A DNA stretch of 11,896 nucleotides, from IMG/VR virus record IMGVR_UViG_3300039360_000021. The stretch is one strand, 5' to 3'. This stretch comes from a virus (taxonomy: Duplodnaviria; Heunggongvirae; Uroviricota; Caudoviricetes). A model generated the notes under the pieces. That model made no database searches, was not told the origin of the DNA, and saw only the letters and a program-made list of their open reading frames with translations. The translations under genes were made by a program, and so were the position numbers. The first letter of the stretch is position 1; each line of letters opens with the position of its first letter. Shown here one piece after another: positions 305-8,945 of the stretch.

Positions 305-1162
305 ATGCTGTTTGTGCTTATTCTAAGCCACCGGGCAGCATCATACGGGGCAATTATGGCCGCATTACCATACATGCAACTGTACATAGCTGATTACCTG
401 GCTGACACCATGCATTTGTCAGCAGAGGAGCATGGCGCGTATTTGTTGCTGATGTTCAATTACTGGCAAACAGGAAAGCCAATACCCAAAAACAGGCTGG
501 CAAAAATTGCCCGTCTGACTAACGAGCGATGGGCTGATGTTGAACCATCCTTGCGGGAGTTTTTTTGCGATAACGGCGAGGAATGGGTACATCTTCGGAT
601 TGAGGAAGATCTGGCATCAGTCAGGGAAAAATTAACCAAAAAATCAGCCGCAGGAAAAGCATCTGTTCAGGCCAGAAGAAGCAGAAAGGAAGCAGATGTT
701 CAAACAAAACAAGAGAGAAATTTAACAGGTGTTCAAACAGATGTTGAAGTGGTGTTTGAACATGATGTCAACACAAAGGCAACTAATAAAGATACAGATA
801 AAGATCTAAAAACAGCTCCCCCCCTAAATCCCCCCCGGGGGAATCGAGGTGTCAAAAAGTTTGACCCTCTGGATATTGCTTTGCCGAACTGGATTTCTGT
901 CTCGCTTTGGCGTGAGTGGGTTGAATTTCGCCAGGCATTGCGTAAACCGATTCGAACGGAGCAGGGCGCTAACGGGGCGATACGGGAGCTGGAAAAATTC
1001 CGCCAGCAGGGTTTTTCACCTGAGCAGGTGATTCGACACAGCATCGCCAACGAATACCAGGGCTTGTTCGCGCCGAAAGGTGTTCGACCTGAGACGTTAC
1101 TCCGACGGGTTAACACCGTTTCGTTACCGGACAGTGCGATCCCGCCAGGCTTCAGGGGGTAA
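305..1162 (+). CDS. ydaU: Rac-type replication protein YdaU-like (DUF1376-like N-terminal region)
   Basis: 285-aa ORF; the N-terminal sequence MAALPYMQLYIADYLADTMHLSAEEHGAYLLLMFNYWQTGKPIPK is what I recall for Rac YdaU. The first ATG at 305 has no Shine-Dalgarno; the internal ATG at 356 (MAALPYM) has a weak GGGG upstream and may be the true start. Stop is 7 bp before the next gene. Confidence 0.8.
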   Translation: MLFVLILSHRAASYGAIMAALPYMQLYIADYLADTMHLSAEEHGAYLLLMFNYWQTGKPIPKNRLAKIARLTNERWADVEPSLREFFCDNGEEWVHLRIEEDLASVREKLTKKSAAGKASVQARRSRKEADVQTKQERNLTGVQTDVEVVFEHDVNTKATNKDTDKDLKTAPPLNPPRGNRGVKKFDPLDIALPNWISVSLWREWVEFRQALRKPIRTEQGANGAIRELEKFRQQGFSPEQVIRHSIANEYQGLFAPKGVRPETLLRRVNTVSLPDSAIPPGFRG

Positions 1163-1168
1163 CTGACC

Positions 1169-1915
1169 ATGAAAAATATTGCGACAGGCGGCGTTCTTGA
1201 ACGTATCCGCAGACTGGCCCCGTCACATGTAACCGCGCCATTCAAGACGGTAGCGGAGTGGCGTGAGTGGCAACTTTCCGAAGGCCAGAAACGTTGTGAG
1301 GAGATCAACCGTCAGAATCGTCAGTTGCGGGTGGAAAAAATTCTGAATCGCTCTGGCATCCAGCCATTGCACCGCAAATGCTCGTTTGCGAATTACCAGG
1401 TGCAGAACGACGGTCAGCGATATGCGTTGAACCAGGCGAAATCTATCGCTGATGAACTGATGACCGGGTGTACAAATTTTGCGTTCAGCGGAAAACCTGG
1501 TACCGGAAAAAACCATCTGGCGGCGGCTATCGGGAATCGCCTGCTGAAAGATGGCCAGACAGTGATTGTGGTTACCGTGGCTGATGTCATGAGTGCTCTA
1601 CACGCTAGCTATGACGACGGGCAATCAGGCGAAAAATTTTTGCGGGAACTGTGCCAAGTGGATCTGCTGGTTCTTGATGAAATTGGCATTCAGCGCGAGA
1701 CAAAAAACGAGCAGGTGGTGCTGCACCAGATTGTTGATCGCCGGACAGCGTCGATGCGCAGCGTGGGGATGCTGACAAACCTGAACTATGAGGCCATGAA
1801 AACATTGCTCGGCGAGAGGATTATGGATCGCATGACCATGAACGGCGGGCGATGGGTGAATTTTAACTGGGAGAGCTGGCGTCCGAATGTCGTCCAGCTA
1901 GGAATTGCGAAGTGA
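1169..1915 (+). CDS. ydaV: DnaC/IstB-like AAA+ helicase loader (YdaV-like replication protein)
   Basis: 248-aa ORF with Walker A ([10 protein letters not shown]) and Walker B (LLVLDEIG) motifs, tightly coupled downstream of the ydaU-like gene. Confidence 0.85.
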
Positions 1916-1937
1916 TTTTTACCGGGAGGAAATTTTA

Positions 1938-2699
1938 ATGGAAACCGTTTTTGATGCACTGAAAGCAATGGGAAAAGCCACGTCGGTAGAACTGGCTGCG
2001 CGACTTGATATCAGTCGTGAAGAAGTGCTGAACGAGCTGTGGGAACTGAAAAAGGCTGGATTCGTTGATAAAAGCGTATACACCTGGCGTGTGGCCGATA
2101 ACAACGTTCAGCAGGAACATCCAGTGCCGGAAGAACAGCCGGAAGAAATCGCCACAGCAACAGTGACGAAAATATCGGAGTGCGATTTAACCGCGACGAT
2201 TGAACAACGTGGTCCACTAACTGCGGATGAACTGGCTACGTTGTTCGGTACCACATCACGCAAAGTGGCTTCAACGCTGGCAATGGCAATCAGCAAGGGG
2301 CGTCTGATTCGCGTAAATCAGAACGGTAAATTTCGTTACTGCATGCCGGGCGATAATTTACCAGCAGAACCGAAAGCTGCATTGGTAACGAAAAATGATG
2401 GTAAAGCCTTTCCTCAGCCAGCCGGTGCTGCGTTACCAGTACAGGAAGCGGCAACACAGGAAGATATTAAAACAGAAACTGTGGCGGACATTGTGCAGTC
2501 GCTGCCATCGTTTACTGAAACGCAAGCGGATGACTTGGTTTTACCATCGCTGCATATAGCAAACCGCGAACTGCGTCGGGCGAAAAATCATGTCCAGAAG
2601 TGGGAGCGTGTCTGCGCCGCGCTGCGGGAGCTGAACAAGCACCGGGATATTGTTCGACAGATTGTCGATTCCTCCAGTCGTATTGTGTCGGAAAAGTGA
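1938..2699 (+). CDS. ydaW: YdaW-like prophage protein, full length, with a probable N-terminal winged-helix region
   Basis: ATG at 1938 preceded by GGGAGGAAA with about 5-nt spacing; the ORF track frame starts earlier at 1905 without an SD. Position after ydaV matches Rac synteny. The N-terminal segment ([29 protein letters not shown]) resembles a wHTH. Symbol is assigned by synteny. Confidence 0.6.
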
Positions 2700-2714
2700 T
2701 TGCCGGAGGCGCTT

Positions 2715-3137
2715 ATGGCAAAAGTTTTTACACAGGAAGAGCGTGAAAAAATTAAGGAGCAGGTTGTTGAGCTGGTACGCCAGAGTGGGCGCGAGACGTT
2801 AAGGCAACTGGAGGCCAAGACAGGGGCGACAAGATATCTGATGAGCATTCTTGCCAGAGAGTTGGTTGCCAGTGGCGATGTATACAACTCTGGCTATGGG
2901 TTATTTACCTCTGAACAGGCTCGTAAGGACTGGAATAACGCCCGCAAAAAACTATCCAGGGCAAAGGTGAAAAAAACGGTTGTGGTTGATCCTGACCTTA
3001 TCTGGTCATTACCAGACGGAGAAATACGCCGATATGACGGGCGTCTGAATATAATCTGTAGCGAGTGCCGTAAGAGCGAAGTTATGAAGCGTGTACTGAT
3101 GTTTTATCGAGGAAGTATCCAGGAATTTATTCGGTAA
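2715..3137 (+). CDS. hypothetical phage protein
   Basis: ATG at 2715 preceded by GGAGG (2706-2710); the ORF is in frame from 2700, immediately after the ydaW-like stop. Basic C-terminal half. No family recognised. Confidence 0.55.
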   Translation: MAKVFTQEEREKIKEQVVELVRQSGRETLRQLEAKTGATRYLMSILARELVASGDVYNSGYGLFTSEQARKDWNNARKKLSRAKVKKTVVVDPDLIWSLPDGEIRRYDGRLNIICSECRKSEVMKRVLMFYRGSIQEFIR

Positions 3138-3184
3138 GCAAAATCAAAATGTAATCGCTCAAGTTTAAGTTGGTGTATCTACGG

Positions 3185-3217
3185 CGCAGAGCCATCGCCT
3201 CATCTGGCACTGCGCTA
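3185..3217. other. imperfect GC-rich inverted repeat between the 145-aa gene and the convergent minus-strand ORF (possible bidirectional terminator)
   Basis: GCGCAGAGCCA ... TGGCACTGCGC, about 10-bp arms with one mismatch, lying between two convergent ORFs. No clean U-tract. Confidence 0.3.
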
Positions 3218-3273
3218 AAATCAAATTTAGTTCCACTCTTTATTTCGTATCTGCTAAAACGCTACATAAAATT

Positions 3274-3546
3274 TTACTTTTTTAAAGAATAAGGGAATAT
3301 GTGCACCATATTGGAGGCTAGTGGATATATTCCTATGCTACGAGTTGTCTTTTTTAGTTGATCTATGCTTGCTTCTTTATCGGGAGCCCGGCCTCCCCAC
3401 ACTGTAACTCCCTCAGGTATATCGATTGGGCGACTTTTGTTTTCATCTGTGATTTCAATCGTTTCCCCATTATTAAGCGTAATAATCAACGATGACACGT
3501 CCAGGTGTTGTGTATTCCCATTTTTATTTTTAATGTCTATTTTCAT
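3274..3546 (-). CDS. hypothetical small protein (90 aa) in the AT-rich cargo island
   Basis: Minus-strand ORF with plausible amino-acid composition but no obvious SD. Opposite orientation to the prophage backbone and in an AT-rich context. No family recognised. Confidence 0.4.
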   Translation of the reverse strand: MKIDIKNKNGNTQHLDVSSLIITLNNGETIEITDENKSRPIDIPEGVTVWGGRAPDKEASIDQLKKTTRSIGIYPLASNMVHIFPYSLKK

Positions 3547-3816
3547 GGCTATTTCATTATATGTTATCTGTGCTGGAGTAATAAGTTTACAGTATTAAGA
3601 AGCATTTTGACGAAACAATCAACTGACTTATCAGCTAAGGTGGCATTGTAATGCGATCTGATTGGTATCATCAGGACGCTGTTCAAAAAAGGGGGATTAG
3701 TTGATCTTGAAATCTTGCTCAAAATGTGTAGCCTCTCGTTTAACTGCCAACTTTTTGGGGCAGTACACTCTGATGCTACACAACTTGCAAGTTTCATTAC
3801 CCCGACGTAAACATTT

Positions 3817-4485
3817 ATGACAGTTGCTGATTTCAAACGTCCTAAGTTGGAGCTCCCAAACGGGGCAAACAAACTACTATTACACTCTTGTTGTGCACCA
3901 TGTTCCGGTGAAGTGATGGAGGCTCTTCAGGCCTCAGGAATCGACTACACCATCTTCTTCTATAATCCGAACATTCATCCTCAGAAAGAGTATTTGATTC
4001 GTAAGAATGAGAATATTCGATTTGCTGAACAACATGGTGTACCGTTTATCGATGCTGATTACGACACTGACAACTGGTTTGAGCGAGCCAAAGGAATGGA
4101 ATGGGAGCCCGAACGTGGGAGGCGTTGTACTATGTGTTTTGACATGCGTTTTGAACGGACGGCGCTGTACGCCGCTGAAAATGGTTTCAGTGTGATCAGC
4201 AGTTCACTGGGCATTTCACGCTGGAAAAATATGCAGCAGGTTAACGACAGCGGACGGCGAGCTGTCGCACATTATCCGGGCATGGTGTACTGGGATTATA
4301 ACTGGCGCAAGCAGGGAGGCTCGTCCCGCATGATTGAAATCAGCAAACGCGAACAATTCTATCAGCAGGAATATTGTGGTTGCGTGTATTCACTTCGCGA
4401 TACCAATTTACACCGCAAATCCCAGGGACGCCCTCTTATCAAAATTGGTCAACTCCACTACGGTAAAGAAGAAGGGCAGGAATGA
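3817..4485 (+). CDS. queH: QueH-like epoxyqueuosine reductase (DUF208 family), putative Fe-S enzyme
   Basis: 222-aa ORF with the N-terminal motif [12 protein letters not shown] that I recognise as the DUF208/QueH signature, plus further conserved Cys pairs ([14 protein letters not shown]) consistent with metal/Fe-S ligation. Weak SD. AT-rich codon usage unlike the flanking phage genes. Confidence 0.7.
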
Positions 4486-4794
4486 TTTTTACATTACGTC
4501 AACAGAGTGTCACAACGTTTCTATATATGGTATGCCGACCGTAATTTTCGAATCATCATGACTAATAGGCAGGTCACCTATGCCAGCAATGACCTGCTCA
4601 TCTTGAAATTAGCAGAAATCTTGTAGCTATGATGTAGCTCAAAATAGTTTTTCATTCTTTTACCTGATGTCTGTTCCTGGCTGAAAACAGACTGTATTAT
4701 TTGATTACGCACCACTGACACTTGTGTATTGAAGTAGTGAGTACAAAGCCACATATTTATCAGTGTATGTATACGTCAAAAACAGGAGATTGTT

Positions 4795-4884
4795 GTGCTG
4801 GTTCTGAAGTGTGCGTTAGCAATAGTGGCTGTGGTGGCAATTTATTGCCTTGTTGTTGTTCTTATGGAGCGACTTTCTGATTGA
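4795..4884 (+). CDS. candidate small hydrophobic membrane peptide (29 aa)
   Basis: GTG start at 4795 preceded by AGGAG (4784-4788) with 6-nt spacing. Translation MLVLKCALAIVAVVAIYCLVVVLMERLSD is one predicted transmembrane helix plus a short acidic tail. Below the ORF-track size cutoff. Confidence 0.35.
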   Translation: MLVLKCALAIVAVVAIYCLVVVLMERLSD

Positions 4885-5029
4885 TTACATACTGGCTAAA
4901 AAAAAGCGTTTGCCTGGCTTATCTTTGTCCGGCAAGGTGCGCTCATTAATCTGAAGTAAATTTATTTCTTAAGTATTCAGATTACTTCTTATGGTCGAAG
5001 TCTCCTGGCAATGTAGAACCAAAATATTT

Positions 5030-5069
5030 ACAAAAACGAGACCCGTCGAGGATAGCTCTGCCGGGTCTG
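5030..5069 (-). terminator. rho-independent terminator downstream of the YeaR-like gene
   Basis: Perfect 7-bp stem AGACCCG (5039-5045) / CGGGTCT (5062-5068) with a long loop. On the minus strand the hairpin is followed by CGTTTTTGT. It lies about 30 bp past the stop of the minus-strand gene. Confidence 0.5.
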
Positions 5070-5097
5070 ATTGTTAAAGTATTTTTAATATGATCAT

Positions 5098-5436
5098 CTA
5101 TTTTTTGGTGCTATAGACTTTTTCGCCTGAGAAGTCTGGAGCGACCCAAAAGTTAATATTAAACTGAGCATCATCGCTTAGTTCAACACGGTGCCAGTAT
5201 TGTGGTGGGCTTGTTGCAAAAGAGCCAGCATTAATAACTACTTTTATCTCTGGTTCAGTAGTATTCTCATCAGCAAAACCATAATATGTTACAGTGCCTT
5301 CCATTACGCACAACTGCCCAAAAACACCTGCTGCTGTATTATGATGTGTTAATAACGCTGAAGGTACGTTCTCTTTTGTGAAGAACGGAGTTGAGCGTTT
5401 GATTACCCAATCTTTAGGAATTCTCTTGTGTGTCAT
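5098..5436 (-). CDS. DUF1971 family protein, YeaR-like
   Basis: Translation MTHKRIPKDWVIKRSTPFFTKENVPSALLTHHNTAAGVFGQLCVMEGTVTYYGFADE... resembles E. coli YeaR as I recall it. ATG at 5436 is preceded by TAGGAGGTGG with 5-nt spacing; the ORF track begins two codons earlier at a GTG. Confidence 0.8.
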   Translation of the reverse strand: MTHKRIPKDWVIKRSTPFFTKENVPSALLTHHNTAAGVFGQLCVMEGTVTYYGFADENTTEPEIKVVINAGSFATSPPQYWHRVELSDDAQFNINFWVAPDFSGEKVYSTKK

Positions 5437-5451
5437 AACCACCTCCTATAA

Positions 5452-5474
5452 AACATGTATTATAAATGCACCTT
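5452..5474 (-). promoter_or_regulatory. candidate NsrR-type operator (11-1-11 inverted repeat) upstream of the YeaR-like gene
   Basis: AACATGTATTA-T-AAATGCACCTT compared with the NsrR consensus as I recall it (AAGATGCATTT-N-AAATGCATCTT); the right half differs at one position and the left half at about three. On the minus strand a perfect TTGACA (+ strand 5486-5491) and perfect TATAAT (+ strand 5459-5464) flank it, but 21 bp apart, so the promoter geometry is non-canonical. Confidence 0.35.
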
Positions 5475-6307
5475 TTGAGGAGTTATGTCAAGCTCTTATG
5501 AAACACATAATTGATATGTTGATTAGAGGAGAAGATAGAATAAATATGGTTGTTTTTCGTATAACTACTTGTTTTGCTTTTGGTTTATGCATTCTGTGTG
5601 TTAGGAATAAGTTATTAAAGCTTAATCAAGAAATCTCGATGTATTCCACATAGATTACTGTTACTGAACCTTATTGTGTGCATTAGTTGTGTTCTGAAAT
5701 TTCAGCTTAATTATTTATGATATATTTTTTAACGATAAATATTTTCCCAGGTAAAAGACAGTTGGGAATAAGATAAGTAATATATCATTAATCTTGATTA
5801 TTCCCAGGGTACCTTTACTGTGCATATAAATAAATCATATATGCATCAAATAATGTAAAGGCATCCTTTTAGATATGTCTTATCAAATGTTAATGACTTG
5901 AGTGGGAAACATGATTCCAGCAACTTATCATGTGGCTACTTTATAAAAATAATGCCCATATAAAACAACAAGCGAAAAGGATTACGGATAAAAAAGGAGC
6001 GAGATGTGCAAACTTGTTATTTTCCATGTTTAACCACCTTAAATAATTGATGATGACGGGATGATTGCATCTGTAATGCTTTTATTGAAATGTTATGATA
6101 AAAAAGAACTTTTTCATAACATTAAAATGTAATTTAGCTAATCGTTTTTAATAATAAGTGTCGTATTTCTATCCTTGTACCAGCTATTTGATATGTAGTG
6201 TTTGTTCATGCTATGTGGGGCTTTACACCATAGCCAGTTTATTTATACTTTATTCGTCAGCCTGAACAACTGGCATCTGCTGCACTGCGCCATAGAGAGA
6301 TTGAGAA

Positions 6308-6907
6308 ATGGCGCATATACAACTGGTCAAACAAACTTCTTCTGGTTTACTTCTCCCGGCGACGCCGGAGAGTTGTGATTTTCTGCATCAAATTAAAATA
6401 GGCGAGTGGATACACGCTGATTTTAAGCGTGTGCGTAACTACGCATTCCACAAGCGTTTTTTCAAACTCCTGCAACTGGGATTCGATTACTGGACTCCGG
6501 TCGGTGGGGCGATCACGCCTCGCGAACGAGAACTGCTGTCTGGTTTCGTTGATTACCTGTGCGAATCAGTTGGTCGGGAACACACGCCAGCCCTGAGTGA
6601 TGCCGCAGAGCAATATCTGAATACAGTTGCGACACGCAGAACCCGGGATACGGCATTGCTAAAGTCGTTTGAGGCTTTTCGCGAGTGGGTAACCATTCAG
6701 GCTGGATTTTACACCGAACATTTTTATCCGGACGGTAGCCATGGGCGTCGGGCGAAATCCATAGCTTTTGCGAATATGGACGAAACCGAGTTTCAGCAGG
6801 TTTATAAATCTGTTCTGAATGTGCTGTGGAACTGGATTCTGTTCCGTAAATTTTCCTCTCTGGAACAAGTCGAAAATGTGGCCGCGCAGCTGCTGGAGTT
6901 TGCGTAA
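6308..6907 (+). CDS. lambdoid nin-region protein (possibly DUF1367 family)
   Basis: 199-aa ORF whose TAA stop overlaps the next ATG (TAATG at 6905-6909), indicating translational coupling. It is the first backbone gene after the AT-rich island. The family assignment is from memory and uncertain. Confidence 0.65.
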   Translation: MAHIQLVKQTSSGLLLPATPESCDFLHQIKIGEWIHADFKRVRNYAFHKRFFKLLQLGFDYWTPVGGAITPRERELLSGFVDYLCESVGREHTPALSDAAEQYLNTVATRRTRDTALLKSFEAFREWVTIQAGFYTEHFYPDGSHGRRAKSIAFANMDETEFQQVYKSVLNVLWNWILFRKFSSLEQVENVAAQLLEFA

Positions 6908-7197: not shown

Positions 7198-7811
7198 TTT
7201 ACCCAACGAATACAGGAAAAAGCGGAGAACACCTTCGTCTCGCCACGCTGGAAAGTGTCTGGATTCAGGGCAAACTGCGTATGTGGGGGCGCTGGTCGTA
7301 TATTGGCGGTGGCAGGTCAGGAAATATGTTCAATCAGTTGTTGGCATCCAAAAAATTGACGAAAACAGCCATCAATGAAGCCCTGCGCAGAATGAAAAAA
7401 GCGGGAATAGAGAAAGCTGAGCTGGAAGCGTTTTTGAGAGAGATGATCAACGGCAAGCAAAAGAGCTGGCTGGCGCATTGTACTGATGCAGAGGCGTTAT
7501 GTATTGATCGAGTCATAAGTGAGGTGCTGGCAGAGCATCCAGGATTGATTAGCGTCCTTCGGCAACGGTATGAGGGNNNNNNNNNNNNNNNNNNNNNNNN
7601 NNNNNNNNNNNNNNNNNNCCAGAGTGGTGTTTTAGCACATGCGAAAAGCGAATTGCTAATTGGTTGGCCGTTGCTGAGTATGCGCTATACATTCCCATGC
7701 GAGAATCATTCGCTCAAAAAACGGCTTGATTTTTTACGCATAAACTGCTTCAATTTTGCTACGCTTCGCAAAGCTGTATCGCGTGGCGAATCAGGCGCAA
7801 TTAAACTTTAA
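7194..7811 (+). CDS. late-gene antiterminator Q-like protein (interrupted by an N-run; extent uncertain)
   Basis: GTG at 7194 preceded by AGGAGGG (7181-7187); the ORF track frame starts earlier at 7074. It is the last backbone gene before the tRNA/lysis region. The N-terminal part (LRMWGRWSY...) loosely resembles the small Q family. The frame stays open across the 42-nt N-run (a multiple of 3) to TAA at 7809-7811, but if the true protein is the short type it ends inside the gap. Confidence 0.45.
   Translation: MIYPTNTGKSGEHLRLATLESVWIQGKLRMWGRWSYIGGGRSGNMFNQLLASKKLTKTAINEALRRMKKAGIEKAELEAFLREMINGKQKSWLAHCTDAEALCIDRVISEVLAEHPGLISVLRQRYEXXXXXXXXXXXXXXXQSGVLAHAKSELLIGWPLLSMRYTFPCENHSLKKRLDFLRINCFNFATLRKAVSRGESGAIKL
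7577..7618. other. run of 42 N (assembly gap or masked bases)
   Basis: Directly visible in the sequence; lies inside the Q-like reading frame. Confidence 1.
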
Positions 7812-7836: not shown

Positions 7837-7913
7837 TTGTGCACAGAAAACCCCCAGCTAGGCTGGGGGTTCCGGAAAGCTTTCAGCTTTGAGCCAGTTA
7901 TTAAAACCCCTTT

Positions 7914-7935
7914 NNNNNNNNNNNNNNNNNNNNNN
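7914..7935. other. run of 22 N (assembly gap or masked bases) within the IS200 left end
   Basis: Directly visible in the sequence. Confidence 1.
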
Positions 7936-7981
7936 GTCTGGCAACTGCAAGTGTCAAACAAGAAATCAAAAGGGGGTCCCA

Positions 7982-8792: not shown

Positions 8793-8867
<75 letters not shown>

Positions 8868-8870
8868 TAT

Positions 8871-8945
<75 letters not shown>

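What the first reader, a model, noticed from the sequence alone, without database searches (positions are those of the whole stretch)
5437..5500. YeaR-like moron with an NsrR-like operator, suggesting nitrosative-stress control
The minus-strand DUF1971 gene resembles host yeaR, which belongs to the nitrate/NO-responsive NsrR regulon. Immediately upstream of its RBS is an 11-1-11 inverted repeat, AACATGTATTA-T-AAATGCACCTT, close to the NsrR operator as I recall it. A perfect TTGACA and a perfect TATAAT are also present on the coding strand, but 21 bp apart. Together this suggests a prophage-carried paralog that responds to host NO or nitrate stress.
Basis: partly seen in the sequence, partly recalled or inferred. 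Interest (0 to 1): 0.5.

Follow-up and report, generated by a model that had tools for sequence, protein, structure and literature searches.

The report
Prophage NO-stress gene with NsrR operator
A Rac-like E. coli prophage carries a small stress gene, a relative of Salmonella STM1808, together with a near-consensus binding site for the host nitric-oxide sensor NsrR over its promoter, so the lysogen probably turns the gene on only under nitric-oxide stress; this is a tidy but unsurprising case of a phage cargo gene wired into a host regulon.

Summary
The 23-bp repeat sits at 5452-5474. It scores 26.2 bits against a matrix built from 27 published NsrR sites (p about 5e-10). That is second only to ytfE among known sites, and the next-best hit in the window is 13.3 bits.

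The gene (5436-5098, minus strand) is a full-length DUF1971 protein. It is only 41% identical to host YeaR. It is 75-83% identical to a separate, highly conserved chromosomal subfamily that includes the Salmonella gene at the STM1808 position, a published NsrR-regulon gene. In 53 of 79 chromosomal orthologue loci, a site of at least 18 bits lies 15-43 nt before the start codon. DNA homology between the moron and those loci ends at the outer edge of the operator, so gene and operator were most likely acquired together.

The operator covers both candidate -10 hexamers. A conserved -35 lies 11 bp upstream, which points to simple repression by promoter occlusion, relieved by NO. No NarL, FNR or Fur site was found, so direct nitrate control is not supported.

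457 of 5426 complete E. coli genomes carry the cassette, always in its prophage-type form. It is a new member of a known kind. NsrR binding and NO induction were not tested.

The parts
5098..5436 (-). Coding sequence of a 112-aa DUF1971 protein of the STM1808 / PDB 3DL3 subfamily. ATG at 5436-5434, stop TAG at 5100-5098.
   Evidence: ORF and translation. Pfam PF09313 E = 2.7e-26. RefSeq annotates WP_001326322.1 at the identical locus in strain 746. PDB 3DL3 E = 2.6e-59 and YeaR 3BB6 E = 3.2e-25. H32 and H82 are invariant.
5442..5446 (-). Shine-Dalgarno sequence GGAGG, 5 nt before the ATG.
   Evidence: Read from the sequence. GGAGG or AAGGAG is also present in the orthologous leaders.
5452..5474 (.). 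Predicted NsrR operator, an 11-1-11 site. Coding strand: AAGGTGCATTT-A-TAATACATGTT.
   Evidence: 26.2 bits, p = 4.5e-10, against the matrix of 27 published sites. 20/23 identical to the listed ygbA site. A site is conserved at this position in 53 of 79 chromosomal orthologue loci and in all 37 prophage alleles with upstream DNA.
5459..5464 (-). Perfect TATAAT at operator positions 11-16. It lies 21 bp from the TTGACA, so it cannot be used together with it.
   Evidence: Sequence. TATAAT occurs in 10 of 13 distinct phage alleles; the others have TTTAAT or CATAAT.
5463..5468 (-). Alternative -10 hexamer CATTTA at operator positions 7-12, 17 bp from the -35. This is the position used by the good -10 hexamers of the chromosomal orthologues.
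   Evidence: Chromosomal promoters have TATTTT, CATATT or TATATT here, with 17-18 bp spacing to a -35-like hexamer. The phage hexamer is weak (2/6).
5486..5491 (-). -35 hexamer TTGACA, 11 bp upstream of the operator.
   Evidence: Perfect in all 13 distinct phage alleles. A hexamer matching at least 4/6 sits at the same 11-12 bp distance in 45 of 52 distinct chromosomal promoters.
5032..5068 (-). Putative intrinsic terminator of the moron: AGACCCG...CGGGUCU followed by CGUUUUUG.
   Evidence: RNA fold of 5020-5100 gives -17.7 kcal/mol, z = -2.6. The simple scan missed it because of its long loop. It is missing from alleles whose homology breaks at 5097, so it is not a fixed part of the cassette.
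5475..6307 (.). AT-rich (28-34% GC) stretch without a convincing gene. It travels with the DUF1971 gene in all alleles and separates it from the DUF1367-YbcO-Q genes.
   Evidence: Composition. No Rfam hit and no convincing ORF. Conserved in all alleles apart from a diverged or indel stretch at about 5751-5797. Moron-less Rac relatives align only from about 6243-6308 onward.

Best explanation
Window 5032-5491 (minus strand) is a self-contained cargo gene (moron) in the variable slot between the replication genes and the DUF1367-YbcO-Q genes of a Rac-like lambdoid prophage. It encodes a DUF1971 protein of the STM1808 subfamily.

Its promoter is overlaid by a near-consensus operator for the host [4Fe-4S] nitric-oxide sensor NsrR. 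The 23-bp operator fills most of the spacer and covers both candidate -10 hexamers.

Proposed mechanism:
- In an unstressed lysogen, holo-NsrR bound at the operator keeps RNA polymerase off the promoter.
- When NO nitrosylates the NsrR cluster, NsrR leaves the DNA.
- A short-leader mRNA (about 15-20 nt) is then made and translated from a strong Shine-Dalgarno sequence.
- The protein is expected to add tolerance to nitrosative stress, as reported for Salmonella STM1808.

Shown here by computation: the operator match, its conservation in orthologues, the promoter geometry, the protein subfamily, and the prophage context.

Inferred, not shown: NsrR binding, NO induction, the transcription start, and the protein's contribution to NO tolerance.
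For: 1. Operator score: 26.2 bits, p = 4.5e-10 (2.5e-8 with an AT-rich background). It ranks second among 27 known sites and the next-best window hit is 13.3 bits.

2. Conservation: 53 of 79 chromosomal orthologue loci have a site of at least 18 bits (mostly 27-31) lying 15-43 nt before the ATG. These are Kluyvera, Leclercia, Citrobacter, Klebsiella, Raoultella, Salmonella, Buttiauxella and two Photobacterium. Only 8 such sites occur in 465,320 background positions of the same loci.

3. Joint acquisition: DNA homology of 72-75% between the moron and Kluyvera/Leclercia-type loci runs from the stop codon to about 5475, the distal edge of the operator.

4. Promoter geometry: a -35 hexamer sits at a fixed 11-12 bp from the operator in both phage and chromosomal promoters.

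5. Link to STM1808: the Salmonella orthologue (79% identical) lies immediately after nhaB (STM1806) and dsbB (STM1807), which is the STM1808 position. STM1808 is cited as an NsrR-regulon gene with a role in virulence.

6. Protein integrity: H32 and H82 are invariant across the subfamily and in YeaR.

7. Distant genomic association: in Neptunomonas the orthologue lies between a ytfE-like RIC gene and an Rrf2 regulator plus sufB, with NsrR-like sites of 23-24 bits in both intergenic regions.

8. Moron anatomy and distribution:
- GC is 28-40% against about 50% in the flanks.
- A terminator hairpin follows the gene.
- Related phages carry different cargo in the same slot.
- The cassette is in 457 of 5426 complete E. 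coli genomes, all at least 95% identical.
- It is present in three sequenced phages.
Against: - No experimental datum for this locus was found. Literature searches returned no description of it.
- The only NsrR ChIP-seq I read was done in CFT073. Its table lacks this site, so that strain probably lacks the cassette.
- The phage promoter is odd. Consensus -35 and -10 are 21 bp apart, and the hexamer at the canonical 17-bp distance is weak (CATTTA, 2/6). Promoter strength and the transcription start are therefore uncertain.
- The matrix includes sites that were themselves predicted with a matrix. The ChIP-positive subset gives the same answer, however.
- Vibrionaceae and Shewanella orthologues mostly lack a nearby site, so NsrR control is not universal in the subfamily.
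- The biochemical activity of DUF1971 proteins is unknown.
- Details of STM1808 (a zinc protein; H32/H82 needed for NO resistance) are recalled from Karlinsey et al. 2012, which I could not read.
Confidence: 0.82

Rival explanations
1. The repeat is a chance AT-rich quasi-palindrome that merely contains promoter hexamers. The gene is expressed constitutively, or silenced by H-NS, with no NsrR involvement.
For: The surrounding DNA is 28-37% GC, and AT-rich palindromes and TATAAT-like strings are common in such DNA. The two arms are only 7/11 complementary to each other.
Against: Even with the local AT-rich background, p = 2.5e-8. The same motif recurs at the same position in 53 orthologous promoters whose flanks are otherwise unalignable. 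All 37 prophage alleles keep at least 17.5 bits even though the operator region is the most variable part of the cassette.
Confidence: 0.05
2. The site does bind NsrR, but NsrR is only one input. Transcription mainly needs another factor, because the -35 and -10 consensus hexamers are out of register. Candidates are an activator, an upstream promoter in the AT-rich region, or relief of H-NS silencing. NO alone would then not induce the gene.
For: There are 21 bp between TTGACA and TATAAT, and the hexamer at 17 bp is weak. The gene sits beside about 830 bp of very AT-rich DNA, typical of H-NS-bound horizontally acquired DNA (established knowledge). Kluyvera/Leclercia-type orthologues carry an extra Fur-box-like element (13-17 of 19 matches), showing that the family can have a second input.
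Against: No NarL, FNR or Fur site was found in 5437-5700. The L087-type alleles have TTGACA-17-CATTTT, a workable sigma-70 promoter. Known NsrR targets such as ytfE and hcp are simple repressed promoters (PMC5320621).
Confidence: 0.1
3. The palindrome, which in several alleles extends to about 37 nt and includes the Shine-Dalgarno sequence, acts mainly as a nucleic-acid hairpin rather than a protein-binding site. It would hide the ribosome-binding site in read-through transcripts.
For: Some alleles are perfect or near-perfect 17-3-17 palindromes (L100: CCTCCAAAAGATGCATT-TTT-AATGCATCTTTTGGAGG). Differences between alleles look compensatory: CCTCC/GGAGG, CCTCA/TGAGG, CATCA/TGATG. Citrobacter orthologues show a similar pattern: GGCATCTAT...ATAGATGCC against GGCACCTAT...ATAGGTGCC.
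Against: With the predicted promoter, the left arm is not transcribed. The window's own allele has an imperfect extension. The 13 distinct phage alleles are closely related, so the counts are not independent. Templated quasi-palindrome mutation could produce the same pattern without selection (established knowledge). None of this explains the match of the core to the NsrR matrix.
Confidence: 0.03

Closest known systems
Salmonella enterica STM1808 (DUF1971 protein of the NsrR regulon; Karlinsey et al. 2012, cited in PMC7527575 and PMC7082413)
   Same: Same protein subfamily: 79% identity, same length, H32 and H82 conserved. It has an NsrR-type site a short distance before the start codon (21 bits, 27 nt, in S. 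diarizonae). Both are single-gene units.
   Different: STM1808 is a core chromosomal gene after dsbB, with its promoter squeezed behind the dsbB terminator. The window's copy is prophage cargo, has a different -35/-10 layout, and is only about 75% identical at the DNA level.
E. coli yeaR-yoaG operon promoter (NsrR-repressed, NarL-activated)
   Same: A DUF1971 gene whose NsrR site overlaps the promoter. The yeaR site AAATGGTATTTAAAATGCAAATT scores 22.8-24.2 bits with the same matrix.
   Different: Only 41% protein identity. There is no yoaG partner gene and no NarL 7-2-7 site. The window's operator is a better match to consensus than yeaR's own.
ytfE and ygbA NsrR operators of E. coli
   Same: 11-1-11 architecture with an A/T-rich centre that doubles as a -10-like hexamer. 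The window site is 19/23 identical to ytfE and 20/23 identical to ygbA (AAGGTGCATTTATATTACAACTT).
   Different: They control unrelated genes on the chromosome.
Phage morons controlled by host regulators (for example Fur-controlled stx1; from established knowledge)
   Same: An autonomous promoter-gene-terminator unit in a lambdoid prophage. It is oriented against phage early transcription, differs in base composition, is absent from sister phages, and is wired to a host stress regulator.
   Different: The regulator here would be the NO sensor NsrR, and the operator was evidently imported with the gene from a chromosomal ancestor.
PDB 3DL3 (Vibrio fischeri 'tellurite resistance protein B', a DUF1971 structure)
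   Same: E = 2.6e-59 over residues 1-111, so the fold is known.
   Different: It is a structural-genomics entry with no assigned activity. Vibrionaceae orthologues mostly lack an adjacent NsrR site.

Membership tests
DUF1971 (Pfam PF09313) | Full-length match to the domain profile above the gathering score | tested here: met
   91.8 bits against a cutoff of 23.1, profile positions 1-80 of 80.
STM1808-type DUF1971 subfamily (as opposed to YeaR or the TehB N-terminal domain) | Much closer to STM1808-position proteins than to YeaR or TehB | tested here: met
   79% identity to Salmonella P0015/P0019, 75-83% to other chromosomal members, 41% to YeaR. The TehB equivalog model scores 48.5 bits against a cutoff of 303. 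The Salmonella orthologue follows nhaB-dsbB = STM1806-STM1807.
STM1808-type DUF1971 subfamily | Conserved His32 and His82, reported as metal ligands needed for NO resistance (recalled from Karlinsey 2012, not read) | tested here: met
   H32 and H82 are invariant in a 10-sequence alignment that includes YeaR. Their role was not tested here.
NsrR operator / NsrR regulon | 11-1-11 inverted repeat matching the NsrR weight matrix at the level of known sites | tested here: met
   26.2 bits, second of 28 sites, p = 4.5e-10.
NsrR operator / NsrR regulon | Site placed so that it overlaps core promoter elements of the regulated gene | tested here: inconclusive
   Both candidate -10 hexamers lie inside the site and a conserved -35 lies 11 bp upstream, but the transcription start is not mapped.
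NsrR operator / NsrR regulon | Conservation of the site upstream of orthologous genes | tested here: met
   53 of 79 chromosomal loci and all 37 prophage alleles.
NsrR operator / NsrR regulon | NsrR binds the site, and expression is derepressed by NO or by nsrR deletion | not testable with these tools
   Needs EMSA or ChIP and reporter or RNA measurements in a lysogen.
Phage moron | Lies between conserved phage modules and is absent from close relatives of the phage | tested here: met
   It lies between the ydaU/ydaV/DUF1627/DUF977 genes and the DUF1367-YbcO-Q genes. Rac, Rac-SA53, 473R12 and 683R6 align only from about 5940-6308 onward and carry other cargo.
Phage moron | Own promoter and terminator, and atypical base composition | tested here: met
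   Promoter hexamers; a terminator hairpin with a U-run (modest z = -2.6); GC 28-40% against about 50% in the flanks.
yeaR-type NarL-activated promoter | NarL 7-2-7 heptamer pair upstream of the -35 | tested here: not met
   The best match is 11/14 and it lies between the -35 and the operator, overlapping the NsrR half-site. Nothing is found upstream of the -35. The same crude consensus count gave only 10/14 in the K-12 yeaR control, so this test has low power.

The most novel reading that the evidence does not exclude
The cassette may be more than a passively regulated cargo gene.

- It sits, in antisense orientation, on the only path that rightward early transcription can take to reach the Q antiterminator gene.
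- Its promoter combines perfect -35 and -10 hexamers that are out of register, with the NsrR operator between them.
- The operator is the most variable segment among prophage alleles, while always keeping a good NsrR score.

The most novel reading not excluded is that NO-triggered leftward transcription from this promoter collides with rightward transcription. Host nitrosative stress would then be coupled to the timing of Q expression and lysis, and allelic variation would tune the NsrR threshold. In that case the phage would be using the host NO sensor for its own decision-making as well as for lysogenic conversion.
Probability: 0.06. Interest if true: 0.7.

Novelty: new member of a known kind. 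Interest (0 to 1): 0.38.

Why it matters
E. coli has no chromosomal copy of the STM1808-type gene. In Salmonella that gene is a published NsrR-regulon member with a cited role in virulence. About 8% of complete E. coli genomes obtain it from a Rac-like prophage, apparently with its host-readable NO switch intact.

If the switch works, this is lysogenic conversion for nitrosative-stress tolerance. That could matter in inflamed gut, urinary tract or macrophage settings. It would also add a strain-variable member to the E. coli NsrR regulon that K-12 and CFT073 studies could not have seen.

It is also a clean example of a regulatory site moving horizontally together with its gene.

Tried and rejected
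- NarL 7-2-7, FNR and Fur consensus scans of 5437-5700 found nothing beyond chance. The NarL scan is weak evidence, because the same crude count gave only 10/14 on the K-12 yeaR promoter.
- The generic sigma-70 and terminator scan did not call the moron's promoter (spacer out of range) or its terminator (long loop). Both were examined by hand and by folding.
- Rfam searches at gathering and permissive thresholds found no RNA family in 4400-6400. ORF listing of the AT-rich spacer gave nothing convincing.
- Karlinsey et al. 2012 could not be opened by PMC id or DOI. STM1808 was therefore tied to this subfamily through synteny plus locus tags quoted in other papers. Details about zinc and H32/H82 are marked as recalled.
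- Literature searches for DUF1971, and for NsrR plus prophage, found no description of this prophage gene.
- I considered the + strand ORF 5378-5653 (91 aa), which overlaps the operator. I rejected it as spurious, because it is antisense to a well-supported gene and is not annotated in RefSeq.
- I considered a + strand promoter inside the palindrome driving the Q-side genes. I rejected it for lack of any -35.
- I considered that the site might be an operator of the phage's own repressor. No similar sequence occurs elsewhere in 13.4 kb of the prophage, including the immunity region (next-best 13.3 bits).

Full report
**1. What is at the coordinates**

The window is part of a Rac-like lambdoid prophage of E. 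coli.
- The 4900-6300 stretch is 100% identical to E. coli strain 746.
- The gene order is: ydaU-like, ydaV-like (IstB/DnaC-type ATPase), DUF1627, DUF977, a hypothetical gene, QueH, the DUF1971 gene on the opposite strand, then DUF1367, YbcO and a DUF1133/Q-like antiterminator.

The minus-strand ORF 5436-5098 encodes 112 residues and is a full-length DUF1971 domain (Pfam E = 2.7e-26).

- The 11-1-11 repeat is at 5452-5474. On the coding strand it reads AAGGTGCATTT-A-TAATACATGTT.
- It ends 15 nt before the ATG.
- GGAGG is at 5446-5442, TATAAT at 5464-5459 and TTGACA at 5491-5486.
- Exactly 21 nt separate the two promoter hexamers.

**2. Is it more than chance?**

As a bare palindrome it is weak, with arms only 7/11 complementary.

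I built a symmetric log-odds matrix from the 27 NsrR sites listed for E. coli CFT073 by Mehta et al. 2015 (PMC5320621, Table 4). Results:
- The site scores 26.2 bits.
- p = 4.5e-10 with a uniform background and 2.5e-8 with the composition of the local AT-rich spacer.
- The next-best position in the whole window scores 13.3 bits.
- In leave-one-out scoring of the known sites, only ytfE is higher (31.2). hcp scores 25.8, tehA 24.9, yeaR 22.8, ygbA 21.1 and hmp 17.4.
- The 17 ChIP-positive sites alone give 24.9 bits (p = 1.5e-9).

The matrix finds the known yeaR site as the only strong hit in 4 kb of K-12 DNA. It finds nothing else above 13.3 bits in 13.4 kb of the prophage, including its immunity region. 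The site is 20/23 identical to the ygbA site in the published table.

**3. What the gene really is**

It is only 41% identical to K-12 YeaR. Its close relatives (75-83% identity over the full length) are chromosomal genes. They occur in:
- Kluyvera, Leclercia, Pseudescherichia, Buttiauxella, Citrobacter, Klebsiella, Raoultella and Salmonella
- Vibrio, Aliivibrio, Photobacterium, Shewanella and other marine Gammaproteobacteria

This is a distinct and unusually well-conserved DUF1971 subfamily. A structure exists for the Vibrio fischeri member (3DL3, E = 2.6e-59; YeaR 3BB6 gives E = 3.2e-25).

The link to STM1808 rests on synteny:
- The Salmonella member lies directly after nhaB and dsbB.
- Published tables give nhaB = STM1806 and dsbB = STM1807, so this is the STM1808 position.
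- STM1808 is cited as an NsrR-regulon gene with a role in virulence (PMC7527575 and PMC7082413, citing Karlinsey et al. 2012).
- I could not open Karlinsey et al.. My recollection is that STM1808 is a zinc protein whose H32 and H82 are needed for NO resistance. This rests on memory only.
- Both histidines are invariant in the subfamily and in YeaR.

**4. The decisive comparative evidence**

I scanned the 100 nt upstream of each orthologue with the same matrix.
- 53 of 79 chromosomal loci have a site of at least 18 bits, and most score 27-31. Examples are AAGATGTATTTTAAATGCATCTT in Kluyvera and AAGATGTATATTAAATACATCTT in Citrobacter.
- The sites end 15-18 nt (Kluyvera/Leclercia type), 25-27 nt (Citrobacter/Klebsiella/Salmonella type) or 43 nt (one Photobacterium) before the ATG.
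- In the remaining 465,320 positions of those loci, only 8 reach 18 bits. At least several of these sit in the intergenic regions described below.
- Outside the site and a -35-like hexamer, the promoter regions of the different genera do not align. The operator therefore stands out as a phylogenetic footprint.
- All 37 prophage alleles with upstream DNA keep a site at the same 14-15 nt distance, scoring 17.5-29.1 bits.
- DNA homology between the moron and the Kluyvera/Leclercia-type loci (72-75%) runs from the stop codon to about 5475, the outer edge of the operator. Gene and operator therefore came in together.

Most Vibrionaceae and Shewanella orthologues have no nearby site, so NsrR control is a feature of the enterobacterial branch. 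The association with NO and Fe-S stress reappears in Neptunomonas, however:
- The orthologue follows an Fe-S protein gene.
- It is flanked by a ytfE-like RIC gene on one side and an Rrf2 regulator plus sufB on the other.
- Both intergenic regions hold NsrR-like sites of 23-24 bits.

**5. Promoter geometry and mechanism**

In 45 of 52 distinct chromosomal promoters, a hexamer matching TTGACA at 4/6 or better lies 11-12 bp upstream of the operator. Common forms are TTTACA, TTGACG and TTGCCT. This gives a 17-18 bp spacer to operator positions 7-12, which read TATTTT, CATATT or TATATT and are respectable -10 hexamers.

All 13 distinct phage alleles have a perfect TTGACA at the same 11 bp. In the phage alleles, however:
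- Positions 7-12 are weak (CATTTA in the window; CATTTT in the L087-type alleles).
- Positions 11-16 are TATAAT, which is 21 bp from the -35 and cannot be used with it.

Which -10 is used cannot be settled without mapping the start. Both lie inside the operator and the rest of the operator fills the spacer, so bound NsrR should exclude RNA polymerase either way. The leader would be only about 15-20 nt, with a strong Shine-Dalgarno sequence.

The likely mechanism is plain repression by holo-NsrR and derepression when NO damages its cluster, as at other NsrR targets (PMC5320621). I found no NarL 7-2-7, FNR or Fur site. The NarL scan has low power, because the same crude count scored only 10/14 on the K-12 yeaR control.

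**6. Is it a moron?**

Yes, by the usual criteria.
- It lies in a slot whose content differs among Rac-like phages. Phage 683R6 has a kinase fragment, an FtsH-like protein and an S8 peptidase there. Phage 666R9 has a DNA-binding protein followed by the DUF1971 gene. Rac, Rac-SA53 and others align only from the DUF1367 gene onward.
- It is oriented against phage early transcription.
- It is AT-rich: 28-40% GC against about 50% in the flanks.
- It has its own promoter.
- In the window it is followed by a hairpin plus U-run (5068-5032; -17.7 kcal/mol, z = -2.6).

The right-hand side (the AT-rich spacer plus the DUF1367-YbcO-Q genes) is linked to the gene in all alleles. The left junction varies, and in one allele group it falls exactly at the stop codon.

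The gene plus promoter is present in 457 of 5426 complete E. coli genomes. All copies are at least 95% identical, and no diverged chromosomal copy was detected. It is also present in three sequenced phages and in Shigella.

**7. Comparison with what is known, and novelty**

NsrR-controlled DUF1971 genes are known (yeaR in E. coli, STM1808 in Salmonella), and morons controlled by host regulators are known. What I could not find described is a prophage-borne STM1808-type gene carrying its own NsrR operator in E. coli. The CFT073 site table lacks this sequence, so that strain probably lacks the cassette, and K-12 has no second stand-alone DUF1971 gene. I therefore class it as a new member of a known kind.

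Confidence:
- About 0.8 that the site is a functional NsrR operator.
- About 0.6 that the protein contributes measurably to nitrosative-stress tolerance in E. coli. This second figure rests on the Salmonella orthologue and on genomic association, not on any test here.

**8. Loose ends**

The operator and its immediate flanks are the most variable 30-60 bp of the 1.2-kb cassette among prophage alleles. They have 11 variable columns in 30, against 0-8 elsewhere (apart from one indel stretch and the alignment ends).

Several alleles extend the palindrome to 17-3-17 with apparently compensatory differences that reach into the Shine-Dalgarno sequence. Possible causes are templated quasi-palindrome mutation, selection for different NsrR affinities, or a hairpin function. 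With 13 closely related alleles, I cannot distinguish between them.

Noticed in passing
L004-L024, L028 (Kluyvera, Leclercia, Pseudescherichia, Buttiauxella, Silvania) and Photobacterium L059/L069, 64-81 nt before the ATG: These chromosomal orthologues carry a Fur-box-like 19-mer, for example GATAATGAGATTCATTATC (13-17 of 19 matches to GATAATGATAATCATTATC). In the enterobacterial loci it sits just upstream of the -35 at a fixed position (64-66 nt before the ATG). This suggests dual Fur and NsrR control there. The element is absent from the prophage cassette and from the Citrobacter/Klebsiella/Salmonella type.
   Followed up: partly
window 5426-5485 and the equivalent positions in L003 and L083-L119: The operator and its flanks form a local hotspot of variation among prophage alleles (11 of 30 columns variable). 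Some alleles form perfect 17-3-17 palindromes that include the Shine-Dalgarno sequence, with compensatory-looking changes (CCTCC/GGAGG, CCTCA/TGAGG, CATCA/TGATG). Citrobacter orthologues show a similar extended palindrome.
   Followed up: partly
window 3817-4485 (+): A full-length epoxyqueuosine reductase QueH gene (Pfam E = 1.1e-65) sits in the same cargo slot of the prophage, but only in the alleles nearly identical to the window. From established knowledge, E. coli normally uses QueG. Two tRNA genes lie further downstream.
   Followed up: no
window 4795-4884 (+): A 29-codon ORF encodes a very hydrophobic peptide (MLVLKCALAIVAVVAIYCLVVVLMERLSD). Two terminator-like hairpins (4836-4873) overlap its 3' part. 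It looks like a small membrane peptide or type I toxin candidate, but has no Pfam match.
   Followed up: no
window 5475-6307: About 830 bp at 28-34% GC has no convincing ORF and no Rfam match, yet is conserved and linked to the DUF1971 gene in all alleles. The exception is a diverged or indel stretch at about 5751-5797. Part of it (from about 5940) is also present in phage 683R6, which lacks the gene.
   Followed up: partly
window 7577-7618 and 7914-7935; 7849-7972; 8793-8942: Two runs of N mask sequence inside and after the Q-like gene. An Rfam STnc490 (Hfq-binding sRNA) match at 73.9 bits spans the second masked run. Two tRNA genes follow, annotated as Thr and Gly in related records.
   Followed up: no
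L079 (Neptunomonas qingdaonensis) 900-5600; L072 (Parendozoicomonas) 2300-3350: In Neptunomonas the orthologue sits in this cluster: ytfE-like RIC gene, NsrR-like site, Fe-S protein gene, DUF1971 gene, Rrf2 regulator, NsrR-like site, sufB. In Parendozoicomonas it follows a methyltransferase gene that has two NsrR-like sites (22 bits) upstream. This resembles a split version of the fused DUF1971-methyltransferase TehB.
   Followed up: partly
L121 (phage vB_EcoS-683R6) 1-3447: The same cargo slot in a sister phage holds a kinase fragment, an FtsH-like protein and a 738-aa S8 peptidase. This may be a defence or other accessory module.
   Followed up: no
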